From Patescibacteria group bacterium (GTDB lineage Bacteria; Patescibacteriota; Patescibacteriia; 2-01-FULL-39-33), in contig JBAZKF010000001.1 of assembly GCA_041650895.1 (NCBI GenBank), positions 701,181 through 765,180 on the forward strand: a DNA stretch of 64,000 bases, in the 5' to 3' direction. The position numbers were made by a program, and so were the translations under genes. Shown here piece after piece: positions 57,190 through 58,566 of this stretch. The notes beneath the pieces are model-generated. The model did not search any database and was not told the origin of the DNA. It was given only the letters and a program-made list of their open reading frames with translations. Every line of letters starts with the position of its first letter. Position 1 is the first letter of the stretch.

Positions 57190-58053
57190 ATGAAATCAAC
57201 TTATCCTAAAATTGTTTGTTGGAGATTAACTTCCGTATGTAATAGGAAGTGTCCTTTTTGTTTCCGTCCAGAAAGTAATAATTTGGACACAAAATCAGTC
57301 TTTAAAATTATAGACAAACTGGCTGCCAGTGGCGTTAAGGGCGTAGGCATTACTGGCGGGGAACCTCTTTCACGTCCAGATATTTCAAAAATATTTAAAC
57401 ATCTTAGCGATAAGAAGATTAAAATTTGTCTTGCTACAAACACTGATTATTACAAAAAAAATCGTAATATTATAAATAAGTATGTCAGCACTATTGGTAT
57501 TCCGATTGAAGCGTCCAGTGGACAAAATCATGATAAAATAAGAGGTAAAGGCAATTTTAAACATGTTATTGAAACTCTCAATGATGTCTATAAGGAAAAT
57601 AAAATAAAAATGTATTTTAGCACTGTTTTAACAAAATATAATATTAACGATTTAGAAAATATAGAGAACTTACTATTACCATACAAAAAGAAAATAATAT
57701 ATTGGAAAATTTATGAATTAATGCGTTATTATAAGGCAAATTTTCAATCAAAGACAGAATGCAACGGCCTCTCTAAAATAGTCAAACCCAAATTTGAAAA
57801 GTTGGGAAAAAAACTTGGGAAGAATAAGTTTTTTTACCTATCCTCTGATGATCGTAGTGGTGCTTCATTTTTGATTAACCCCGATGGGAGGGCAATTGTG
57901 CCGGTAGAATCCGATGGTAAAACAAAAGACATTGCCTTGGGTAATTTTTTAACTGACAATATTGGTGAAATTTTTGATAAATGGAATCATTATACGGATT
58001 TTAGTAAATACCAATGTCATAAATGTGCTTTGAAAAGTAGTTGTCTTAGGTAA
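57190..58053 (+). CDS. Radical SAM enzyme, 287 aa, viperin/MoaA/NirJ-like N-terminus and C-terminal CxxCx5C (twitch-like) motif; very AT-rich
   Basis: CNRKCPFCF...GITGGEPL; C-terminal CHKCALKSSC; ~30% GC versus ~42-48% around it. Confidence 0.75.
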   Translation: MKSTYPKIVCWRLTSVCNRKCPFCFRPESNNLDTKSVFKIIDKLAASGVKGVGITGGEPLSRPDISKIFKHLSDKKIKICLATNTDYYKKNRNIINKYVSTIGIPIEASSGQNHDKIRGKGNFKHVIETLNDVYKENKIKMYFSTVLTKYNINDLENIENLLLPYKKKIIYWKIYELMRYYKANFQSKTECNGLSKIVKPKFEKLGKKLGKNKFFYLSSDDRSGASFLINPDGRAIVPVESDGKTKDIALGNFLTDNIGEIFDKWNHYTDFSKYQCHKCALKSSCLR

Positions 58054-58088
58054 ATGACTTAGGATAACTTTGGGATATAATAATATCC

Positions 58089-58271
58089 TTGCGCTTCCAG
58101 TCCAGTACGGCCGATAAAACGCTTTTACGTAAATTAATGGCGAAATATTTGGAGCAAATTCCTGAAAGAATTTGGTGCGGTCATGTTGCTTGGATCTGCG
58201 GTCAAAGGGTTTTATTTGACGCTTACTATCCTAATTTTAACTGGTTTAATCAGCAGTGCGTACCCGAGTGA
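58089..58271 (+). CDS. Candidate small peptide (44-60 aa) downstream of the radical SAM gene; aromatic/Asn-rich C-terminus
   Basis: TTG (58089) or ATG (58137) start; C-terminal FDAYYPNFNWFNQQCVPE; followed by terminator AAATCACCATACCATTAGTAATGGTGATTTTTATTTTT (58269-58306); no clear RBS. Confidence 0.3.
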   Translation: MRFQSSTADKTLLRKLMAKYLEQIPERIWCGHVAWICGQRVLFDAYYPNFNWFNQQCVPE

Positions 58272-58309
58272 ACTAAATCACCATACCATTAGTAATGGTG
58301 ATTTTTATT

Positions 58310-58566
58310 TTTGACTTTTTATTTGTTTTTTGTTATATTGAAAATATCGCATAGGCAAGTTAAACAATTCATAACAGCGCCAGACAGTGGTTATCACCAT
58401 TGGAGCTGCCGAAAGAAATCCGTTCAGAGCGGAGAGTAAAATCGGCCGGTCAGCCCGTAACAGCTGAAATTAAGTCAAACACCGAGATGGTACCGCCCGC
58501 GAGGGCTCCGGCAAGCCAAGTTGGTGTTTTTTATTTTTAAAGTAAATAGTAATCATAATTAATTAT
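58310..58566 (+). promoter_or_regulatory. Putative T-box leader of ileS (promoter TTGACT-18-TATATT, antiterminator/terminator)
   Basis: GAGAUGGUACCGCC at 58484-58497 (10/14 T-box consensus with UGGU bulge); terminator stem CACCGAGAUGG/CCAAGUUGGUG plus U-run 58479-58538; candidate Ile codon AUC-A at 58393-58396. Confidence 0.4.

What the first reader, a model, noticed from the sequence alone, without database searches (positions are those of the whole stretch)
57190..58310. AT-rich viperin/MoaA-like radical SAM gene with a downstream Trp/Tyr/Phe-Asn-rich peptide ORF (possible RiPP-like or defense island)
The 287-aa radical SAM protein (CNRKCPFCF...GITGGEPL N-terminus, C-terminal CHKCALKSSC) has ~30% GC and Lys/Asn/Ile-rich codon usage, unlike its neighbours, which suggests horizontal acquisition. 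Its N-terminal motif resembles viperin (CNYKCGFCFH...FSGGEPF) and MoaA. Its length fits prokaryotic viperins, but it also has a twitch/SPASM-like terminal Cys motif typical of peptide-modifying enzymes. A 44-60-aa ORF directly downstream ends FDAYYPNFNWFNQQCVPE. That tail has repeated aromatic-X-Asn triplets (YPN, WFN), the kind of motif crosslinked by cyclophane-forming radical SAM maturases. The ORF is followed by a strong terminator, which supports co-transcription.
Basis: partly seen in the sequence, partly recalled or inferred. Interest (0 to 1): 0.58.

Follow-up and report, generated by a model that had tools for sequence, protein, structure and literature searches.

The report
Stand-alone viperin-like radical SAM gene
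This AT-rich gene in a Patescibacteria genome encodes a lone radical SAM enzyme from a large, apparently undescribed sister family of the antiviral enzyme viperin; the small peptide ORF after it is not conserved anywhere, so it is not a peptide-modifying (RiPP) cluster.

Summary
A 287-aa radical SAM ORF (57190-58053, +) has 31% GC in a 43% GC housekeeping region. A 60-codon ORF and a hairpin plus T-run follow it.

The RiPP reading fails:
- There is no SPASM/twitch domain.
- The small ORF has no homologue in 5.8 billion proteins or in 14 fetched loci.
- No neighbour recurs across 10 homolog loci.

The viperin/MoaA-like reading is half right. The predicted fold matches viperin over the whole chain (TM 0.78), including the C-terminal extension. 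However, the protein scores 59 bits against a 180-bit curated viperin cutoff.

It belongs to a distinct family with 666 clusters at 50% identity. Sampled relatives outside the window's own clade have viperin as their best curated hit. About a quarter of the top-scoring members are multidomain, some fused to TIR, caspase, EAD1, WD40 or HD domains.

The window's copy sits in a small Patescibacteria-only clade. That clade replaced four viperin pocket residues (N77C, S154C, K220Y, Y302S) and gained a C-terminal CxxCx3-5C tail. The gene is lower in GC than its host in 9 of 10 homolog loci, which suggests repeated horizontal transfer.

The most likely role is a single-gene, nucleotide-modifying conflict or defence enzyme. 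This is inferred, not shown.

The parts
57136..57164 (+). Candidate promoter for the rSAM gene (TTGAAC-17-TATCAT), in the 293-nt AT-rich gap shared with a divergently transcribed gene
   Evidence: Consensus scan, 9 of 12 matches. Weak and not tested.
57190..58053 (+). Radical SAM gene, 287 aa; a stand-alone member of a viperin-sister family (Patescibacteria clade)
   Evidence: ORF. Pfam Radical_SAM 76 bits. Identical protein P0001 and about 50 relatives at 52-62% identity. AF2 model pLDDT 89.8. Viperin TM 0.78.
57238..57261 (+). Codons for C17-x3-C21-x2-C24, the [4Fe-4S]/SAM cluster motif
   Evidence: Invariant in 36 of 36 aligned family members.
57355..57369 (+). Codons for G56-G57-E58-P59-L60, the SAM-binding GGE motif
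   Evidence: Invariant columns in alignment A1. Shared with viperin and MoaA.
57703..57714 (+). Codons for W172-K173-I174-Y175, equivalent to the viperin W246-K247-V-F motif
   Evidence: In alignment A1, W172, K173 and Y175 are invariant in all 36 sequences. In the larger 40-member family alignment W is kept in 40 of 40 and K in 38 of 40, and the motif aligns to the viperin WKVF.
58015..58044 (+). Codons for C276-H-K-C279-A-L-K-S-S-C285, the clade-specific C-terminal Cys tail
   Evidence: CxxCx(3-6)C is present in most of the ~50 sequences of the Patescibacteria clade. It is absent from the wider family and the third Cys is lost in P0004, P0007, P0031 and P0047. No SPASM Pfam hit.
58089..58271 (+). 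60-codon ORF (TTG start; internal ATG gives 44 aa). Most likely non-coding 3' UTR, not a precursor peptide.
   Evidence: No homologue. No family hit. No match in homolog loci. GC is 42%, like the host and unlike the rSAM gene.
58266..58312 (+). Hairpin plus T-run; probable intrinsic terminator that ends the rSAM transcript before the ileS promoter and leader
   Evidence: RNA fold -12.6 kcal/mol, z = -3.7. An ileS promoter-like site follows at 58311-58339.

Best explanation
The gene encodes a stand-alone radical SAM enzyme. It has a viperin-type fold: a partial (beta-alpha)6 barrel closed by a C-terminal extension.

Shown here:
- It belongs to a large family that is sister to, but distinct from, the antiviral viperins.
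- Outside Patescibacteria, many members of this family are fused to immune or conflict-system domains: TIR, caspase, EAD1, WD40, and a tandem Lrp/AsnC-like sensor-type module.
- The window's copy lies in a small Patescibacteria-only clade. This clade occurs patchily, always as a lone gene in unrelated neighbourhoods, and is nearly always more AT-rich than its host. That pattern points to repeated horizontal transfer.

Inferred mechanism:
- The CX3CX2C cluster cleaves SAM to a 5'-deoxyadenosyl radical.
- The radical abstracts a hydrogen from a phosphate-bearing, nucleotide-like substrate.
- The substrate is held by the conserved R118 and W172-K173 (viperin R194 and W246-K247).
- The product is a modified nucleotide that interferes with phage or competitor replication.

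The clade has rebuilt the pocket: N77 to Cys, S154 to Cys, K220 to Tyr, Y302 to Ser. It has also added a C-terminal CxxCxnC tail. The substrate or product therefore probably differs from the ddhNTPs that viperin makes.

The downstream ORF is not part of the system.
For: Fold:
- AF2 model has pLDDT 89.8.
- Foldseek gives TMq/TMt 0.78/0.77 to CTP-bound mouse viperin over 294 columns. MoaA gives 0.67/0.60 and SkfB 0.73/0.56.

Sequence:
- The best solved-structure hits are Trichoderma viperin-like enzymes, aligned over residues 6-242.
- PADLOC hits only the pVip models, 81.6 bits.
- All 8 wider-family members tested have viperin_w_prok as their top NCBIfam hit (71-109 bits, full-length alignment).

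Family:
- 666 clusters at 50% identity have E <= 1e-30.
- Direct BLASTP of the window protein gives E = 9e-38 to a TIR fusion, 2e-25 to a caspase fusion and 7e-28 to a WD40 fusion, against 6.5e-5 to human viperin.
- Fusion domains were identified, and counted.
- The caspase-fusion locus also carries a serine recombinase, XRE and ParB_N genes. The TIR-fusion locus carries a second TIR gene.

Nucleotide link:
- There are 5 rSAM-HD fusions.
- NUDIX or His_Phos genes lie next to or near the rSAM in L010, L013 and L015.

Mobility:
- GC is 6-12 points below the host locus in 9 of 10 homolog loci.
- No neighbour is conserved.
- Only about 50 clusters at 90% identity exist for the clade.

Conserved residues were mapped.
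Against: - No activity, substrate or phage phenotype is known for any member of this family.
- The window protein fails the curated viperin cutoff (59 vs 180 bits).
- It lacks viperin's N77, H79, K120, K220, N222, R245 and Y302.
- Its profile score to MoaA is about equal to its score to viperin.
- No kinase or known defence gene lies next to it. The window neighbourhood is housekeeping: ThrRS, ArgRS, IleRS.
- No copies were found on phage, plasmid or IMG/VR contigs.
- The immune-type fusions are in relatives only 28-32% identical. Their role may not carry over to the remodelled Patescibacteria clade.
Confidence: 0.5

Rival explanations
1. RiPP cluster: the rSAM is a twitch/SPASM-type maturase that crosslinks aromatic-X-Asn motifs in the downstream 44-60-aa peptide.
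For: - The highest raw NCBIfam scores are to SPASM peptide maturases, but only over the N-terminal core, residues 5-183.
- SkfB has the best Foldseek E-value.
- The window protein's tail has CX2CX5C spacing.
- One homolog locus (L011) has two small ORFs and a weak Peptidase_C39 hit downstream.
Against: - There is no SPASM/twitch Pfam hit.
- At 287 aa the protein leaves no room for an RRE or SPASM domain.
- Tail spacing is CX2CX3C in most relatives, and the tail is missing from the wider family.
- The small ORF has no homologue anywhere.
- No small ORF, protease or transporter recurs across loci.
- The SkfB match covers only about half of SkfB (TMt 0.56).
Confidence: 0.04
2. A lineage-specific housekeeping or metabolic enzyme of Patescibacteria, for example one that modifies an RNA, a cofactor or a salvaged metabolite, with no role in conflict.
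For: - The window neighbourhood is housekeeping.
- Clade members are well conserved at 52-62% identity, with invariant clade-specific residues.
- Neighbours are sometimes metal or redox genes: ArsR plus thioredoxin, CsoR plus VIT1, and a heavy-metal ATPase.
- A small ferredoxin lies 2.7 kb upstream.
Against: - Distribution is patchy, with about 50 clusters at 90% identity in a 5.8-billion-protein database.
- Synteny is absent.
- GC is consistently atypical for the host.
- L015 holds a near-identical tandem duplicate.
- Relatives are fused to TIR, caspase and EAD1 domains.
Confidence: 0.27
3. A MoaA-type GTP cyclase or other two-cluster cofactor-biosynthesis enzyme, with the C-terminal cysteines binding an auxiliary [4Fe-4S] cluster.
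For: - hhalign probability to E. coli MoaA is 98.0%.
- The NCBIfam moaA model scores 61.9 bits.
- The clade has five extra conserved cysteines: C10, C80, C276, C279 and C283/285.
Against: - 61.9 bits falls far below the 284-bit cutoff.
- The alignment to MoaA stops at about residue 157.
- Fold match to MoaA is poorer, TM 0.67/0.60.
- The tail spacing is not MoaA's CX2CX13C. That spacing is recalled from my own knowledge, not checked here.
- No moaB/C/D/E-like gene is called in any locus.
Confidence: 0.04
4. An activating enzyme for a glycyl-radical protein, of the NrdG or PflA type.
For: - The NrdG2 model scores 50 bits.
- PFL-activase structures are weak profile hits.
- The protein's size is similar to some activases.
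Against: - 50 bits falls below the 131-bit cutoff.
- The viperin-type C-terminal extension is absent from activases.
- No gene with a glycyl-radical-enzyme domain (NrdD or PFL type) is called next to it in any locus.
- L002 carries a separate ATP-cone gene followed by a 260-aa rSAM gene. I read this pair as NrdG-like, which is my interpretation rather than an annotation.
Confidence: 0.05

Closest known systems
Viperin / prokaryotic viperins (RSAD2, pVip; NCBIfam NF038283)
   Same: - CX3CX2C and GGE motifs.
- Similar size, about 290 aa.
- Partial barrel plus C-terminal extension (TM 0.78).
- Shared R194, W246-K247 and the T/S-N 'ribose' motif.
- The wider family also keeps K220 and Y302.
- Single-gene organisation.
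- Low GC relative to host and patchy distribution, as is common for defence genes.
   Different: - Only 21% identity over 188 aa to human viperin.
- 24-38 bits to solved viperins, which score 330-630 bits against each other.
- Below the curated cutoff.
- N77, H79, K120, K220, N222, R245 and Y302 are replaced.
- No adjacent nucleotide kinase.
- An extra C-terminal Cys tail.
- The family forms its own clade in a rough NJ tree rooted on MoaA.
MoaA (GTP 3',8-cyclase)
   Same: - Same rSAM neighbourhood, with hhalign probability 98.0%.
- MoaA acts on a nucleotide triphosphate.
- Both have C-terminal cysteines.
   Different: - Far below the curated cutoff.
- The alignment covers only the N-terminal 144 columns.
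- No Moco-pathway genes lie nearby.
- Different Cys spacing and position.
SPASM/twitch RiPP maturases (SkfB, SuiB, StsB, three-residue cyclophane enzymes)
   Same: The N-terminal rSAM core is similar.
   Different: There is no SPASM/twitch domain, no RRE and no conserved precursor. The protein is 130-180 aa shorter.
Ophion OpnA (bioRxiv 10.1101/2025.09.30.679545)
   Same: [quoted passage not shown] It is a precedent for non-viperin, viperin-like rSAM defence enzymes.
   Different: Ophion is a three-gene system (rSAM, PHP, PRTase) in Gammaproteobacteria, and the window gene has no such partners.

Membership tests
Viperin (pVip/RSAD2) | CX3CX2C cluster motif and GGE SAM-binding motif | tested here: met
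   C17/C21/C24 and G56-G57-E58 are invariant.
Viperin (pVip/RSAD2) | Partial (beta-alpha)6 barrel closed by a C-terminal extension | tested here: met
   Foldseek TMq/TMt 0.78/0.77, rmsd 3.1 A over 294 columns to mouse viperin 6q2p. The feature is defined as in bioRxiv 10.1101/2023.09.13.557418.
Viperin (pVip/RSAD2) | Score above the curated family HMM cutoff (NF038283, 180 bits) | tested here: not met
   59.1 bits. Other family members score 71-109 bits.
Viperin (pVip/RSAD2) | Conserved NTP-binding and catalytic residues (mouse N77, H79, K120, R194, K220, N222, R245, K247, Y302). Roles are from my own knowledge of the viperin structures. A conserved catalytic Tyr is also described in PMC8124187. 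| tested here: not met
   Only R194 (R118) and K247 (K173), together with W246, are kept. The others are C10, R12, G51, Y142, S144, Y171 and S226.
Viperin (pVip/RSAD2) | Makes 3'-deoxy-3',4'-didehydro-NTPs and protects against viruses | not testable with these tools
   Needs enzymology and phage assays.
SPASM/twitch RiPP maturase | C-terminal SPASM or twitch domain that binds auxiliary Fe-S clusters | tested here: not met
   No PF13186 hit at E <= 0.1. The Cys tail is 10 residues long, has variable spacing and is absent from the wider family.
SPASM/twitch RiPP maturase | Conserved adjacent precursor peptide | tested here: not met
   The small ORF has no homologue. No small ORF recurs in 10 loci.
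MoaA | Score above the curated cutoff (TIGR02666, 284 bits) and Moco-pathway gene context | tested here: not met
   61.9 bits. No moa genes in the window or in homolog loci.
Viperin-sister rSAM family (defined here from alignment A1) | Full-length match to the family profile, with invariant R118, T145, N151, W172-K173, Y175, R222, G233 and G251 | tested here: met
   The window protein is the first sequence of A1. 128 of 151 top representatives match over at least 220 profile positions. BLASTP E-values to the fused members listed range from 9e-38 to 2e-20.

The most novel reading that the evidence does not exclude
The gene represents a Patescibacteria-specific branch of a previously unrecognised second viperin-like immune enzyme family.

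In the wider family the rSAM domain is wired to TIR, caspase or EAD1 effectors and to a tandem Lrp/AsnC-like sensor-type module. In ultra-small symbionts it has been stripped down to a single mobile gene.

The pocket of this branch is rebuilt (two Cys, a relocated Tyr, and possibly an auxiliary metal site from the CxxCxnC tail). It would therefore make a new kind of antiviral nucleotide analogue rather than a ddhNTP.
Probability: 0.3. Interest if true: 0.78.

Novelty: new variant of a known kind. Interest (0 to 1): 0.55.

Why it matters
Viperin is one of the few immune enzymes shared by bacteria, archaea and animals, and its products are natural chain-terminating antivirals. The published viperin surveys read here root their trees on MoaA and do not mention this group.

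A second viperin-like family of several hundred clusters would matter in three ways:
- It would widen the set of radical SAM immune enzymes, since some members are fused to TIR, caspase and EAD1 domains.
- It could yield new nucleotide analogues.
- It would give a candidate single-gene defence for Patescibacteria, which have been reported to favour compact single-gene systems (PMC12988326).

The correlated K220-to-Tyr and Y302-to-Ser swap is a clean, testable case of active-site remodelling. If the gene turns out to be housekeeping, the finding is an ordinary unannotated rSAM.

Tried and rejected
- **Frameshifted nucleotidyltransferase remnant.** I tested whether 58054-58310 is such a pseudogene, because it contains an 'LLGSAVKG' motif. 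Four reconstructed translations gave no Pfam hit at E <= 10, so I dropped the idea.
- **Insertion scars.** An 11-nt direct repeat, CATTAGTAATG, lies at 57182 and 58287. A 12-nt inverted repeat lies at 57198 and 58059. Both are short enough to be chance, so I make no claim.
- **Genome-collection scan.** The single-protein scan found only one unrelated Bacilli rSAM.
- **Metagenome scan.** The alignment-based scan chose generic GGEPL-type patterns and returned mostly core-only rSAM matches. Only L016 matched the query over nearly its full length, so it was no use for synteny.
- **Phage, plasmid and IMG/VR searches.** These gave only core-only or chance matches.
- **BFVD fold search.** No close viral relatives were found; the best TM was 0.67.
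- **Unavailable papers.** The viperin structure papers and Bernheim et al. 2021 were not held. Residue roles therefore rest on my own knowledge.
- **Rfam.** It found no T-box or other RNA family in 56880-58600.
- **AF2 coordinates.** These are not exposed, so I could not check whether C10, C80, C276 and C279 lie close together.
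Full report
**1. The observation**

ORF 57190..58053 (+) encodes 287 aa with VCNRKCPFCF, GITGGEPL and a C-terminal CHKCALKSSC. It has 30.9% GC and 25.7% GC3. The window as a whole has 43.2% GC, and the next gene has 44.2% GC and 47.5% GC3.

The gene is real. 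Pfam Radical_SAM scores 76 bits. An identical protein is on record from a 957,791-bp 'Patescibacteria group bacterium' contig, with about 50 relatives at 52-62% identity.

The downstream 60-codon ORF (58089..58271) and a hairpin plus T-run are also present. The hairpin spans 58266-58310, folds at -12.6 kcal/mol, and has z = -3.7.

**2. The RiPP reading fails**

- No SPASM or twitch model matches.
- The small ORF has no family hit.
- It has no homologue among 5.8 billion proteins.
- It has no tblastn match in the 14 loci fetched by then, about 10 of them non-redundant family loci.
- An all-vs-all comparison covered every ORF of 35 aa or more within 3 kb of the rSAM gene in 10 non-redundant homolog loci plus the window. 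It found no recurrent neighbour: no peptide, protease or transporter. One further locus, fetched later, again showed a different context.
- The ORF region has host-like GC (42%), unlike the rSAM gene.
- ORFs of this length are common in non-coding frames nearby.
- The high NCBIfam scores to SPASM maturases cover only the N-terminal rSAM core, residues 5-183.

**3. What the protein resembles**

No curated family reaches its cutoff. Viperin scores 59 against 180 bits, MoaA 62 against 284, and NrdG2 50 against 131. PADLOC hits only the two pVip models, at 81.6 and 72.9 bits over residues 8-242.

The best solved-structure sequence hits are Trichoderma viperin-like enzymes, aligned over residues 6-242.

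An AF2 model built on the family alignment has pLDDT 89.8. It superposes on CTP-bound mouse viperin with TM 0.78/0.77 over the whole of both chains. MoaA gives 0.67/0.60 and SkfB 0.73/0.56.

Profile-profile comparison gives 98.1% probability to viperins over 190 columns, running through the WK motif. It gives 98.0% to E. coli MoaA over 144 columns.

'Viperin/MoaA-like' is therefore accurate, with the fold favouring viperin. It is not a viperin in the strict sense. True viperins score 330-630 bits against one another, whereas this protein scores 24-38 bits against them.

**4. A distinct family with immune-type fusions**

A profile of the family finds 666 clusters (at 50% identity) with E <= 1e-30. 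Of the top 151 representatives:
- 128 carry the full-length domain.
- 90 of those are stand-alone and 36 are multidomain.
- 24 share a roughly 350-aa C-terminal module made of two Lrp/AsnC-like units.
- Five of these carry an N-terminal caspase domain. For the one tested, the best NCBIfam hit is the 'EACC1-associated' caspase type, below its cutoff.
- Three carry an N-terminal TIR domain, one of them with WD40 repeats as well.
- Five are rSAM-HD fusions.
- Four share another C-terminal module; in the one scanned (P0186) it gives a weak, sub-threshold EAD1 hit.

The window protein aligns directly and end to end with these fusions. BLASTP gives 31.5% identity and E = 9e-38 to the TIR fusion, E = 2e-25 to the caspase fusion, and E = 7e-28 to the WD40 fusion. 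To human viperin it gives only E = 6.5e-5.

All eight wider-family members tested have viperin_w_prok as their top NCBIfam hit, at 71-109 bits with full-length alignment but below cutoff. All ten tested hit the PADLOC pVip models at 70-120 bits.

The caspase-fusion locus also carries a serine recombinase, XRE regulators, a ParB_N protein and a methyltransferase. The TIR-fusion locus carries a second TIR gene.

My literature searches found no description of this family. The nearest precedent is Ophion OpnA, an rSAM 'related to but distinct from' pVips.

**5. The window's clade is a remodelled offshoot**

I aligned the family with four solved viperins and E. coli MoaA. The viperin positions R194, W246 and K247 are kept across the family (R in 39 of 40, W in 40 of 40, K in 38 of 40). 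The wider family also keeps K220 (as K or R in 29 of 40) and the catalytic-Tyr position Y302 (Y in 28 of 40).

The Patescibacteria clade differs. It has Tyr at the K220 position (Y142) and Ser at the Y302 position (S226). It has Cys at the N77 position (C10) and at the S154 position (C80). These occur without exception in the sequences where the positions could be read.

The clade also has a C-terminal CxxCx3-6C tail in most members, which the wider family lacks.

The rSAM-HD fusion P0051 is sister to the clade in a rough NJ tree and has His at both the K220 and Y302 positions.

These changes fall on inward-facing positions of alternate strands. I read them as a change of substrate or of radical-quenching chemistry, possibly together with a new metal site.

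**6. Mobility and context**

In 9 of 10 homolog loci the rSAM gene is 6-12 GC points below the rest of its locus. The low GC is therefore a family trait.

Neighbourhoods are unrelated to each other. The window's neighbourhood is housekeeping: ThrRS, ArgRS and IleRS.

Loose but recurring links are to nucleotide phosphohydrolases:
- HD fusions.
- NUDIX genes adjacent in L010, two genes away in L013, and 4 kb away in L015.
- A His_Phos gene adjacent in L010.

L015 carries two 99.65%-identical copies. No copies were found in phage, plasmid or IMG/VR collections.

**7. Verdict**

The gene is a horizontally mobile, stand-alone member of an apparently undescribed viperin-sister radical SAM family. 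Its most likely role is a nucleotide-modifying conflict or defence enzyme, at about 50% confidence. A lineage-specific metabolic role is the main rival, at about 27%.

The RiPP, MoaA and activase readings are each unlikely. The small ORF should be dropped.

Noticed in passing
window 58567-62259 (+): The isoleucyl-tRNA synthetase (1230 aa) carries an inserted histidine-phosphatase domain (His_Phos_1, aa 574-734, 130 bits) that splits the catalytic domain. A stand-alone His_Phos_1 gene directly upstream of an rSAM-HD fusion in L010 is 27% identical to this insert.
   Followed up: partly
window 58311-58545 (+): The ileS leader has a promoter-like site (58311-58339), a GGTACCGC T-box-like core, and a terminator-like hairpin (58508-58524) with a T-run. 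Rfam finds no T-box even at E <= 1. It may be a divergent T-box or another kind of leader.
   Followed up: partly
window 1-2511 (+), ORF 1053-1538: The 23S rRNA match spans 2511 nt but covers only 1862 model positions, so about 650 nt are extra. The extra stretch holds an ORF for a LAGLIDADG homing endonuclease, 87.8 bits. This is probably an rRNA intron.
   Followed up: partly
L015 5001-5861 and 6473-7333: Two rSAM copies, 99.65% identical with a single W11Y difference, flank a PNPOx-like gene. This is either a recent tandem duplication or an assembly artefact.
   Followed up: partly
window 57182-57192 and 58287-58297; 57198-57209 and 58059-58070: An exact 11-nt direct repeat, CATTAGTAATG, brackets the rSAM plus small-ORF segment. 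A 12-nt inverted repeat brackets the CDS. Both are short enough to be chance, but they could be insertion scars.
   Followed up: no
window 54236-54433 (+) and 54605-56896 (-): A 65-aa 4Fe-4S ferredoxin lies 2.7 kb upstream. Between it and the rSAM are four minus-strand genes with no firm family assignment. One has a sub-threshold macro-domain hit at 55219-55659 (21 vs 22 bits), and I read a hydrophobic N-terminal stretch in the translation of 56387-56896. None recurs next to rSAM homologues.
   Followed up: partly
P0120, P0121, P0141, P0123, P0133 and 19 others (loci L096, L097): There is a recurrent multidomain architecture: [TIR or caspase or nothing] - viperin-like rSAM - tandem Lrp/AsnC-like module of about 350 aa. 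I found no description of it in the literature searched.
   Followed up: partly
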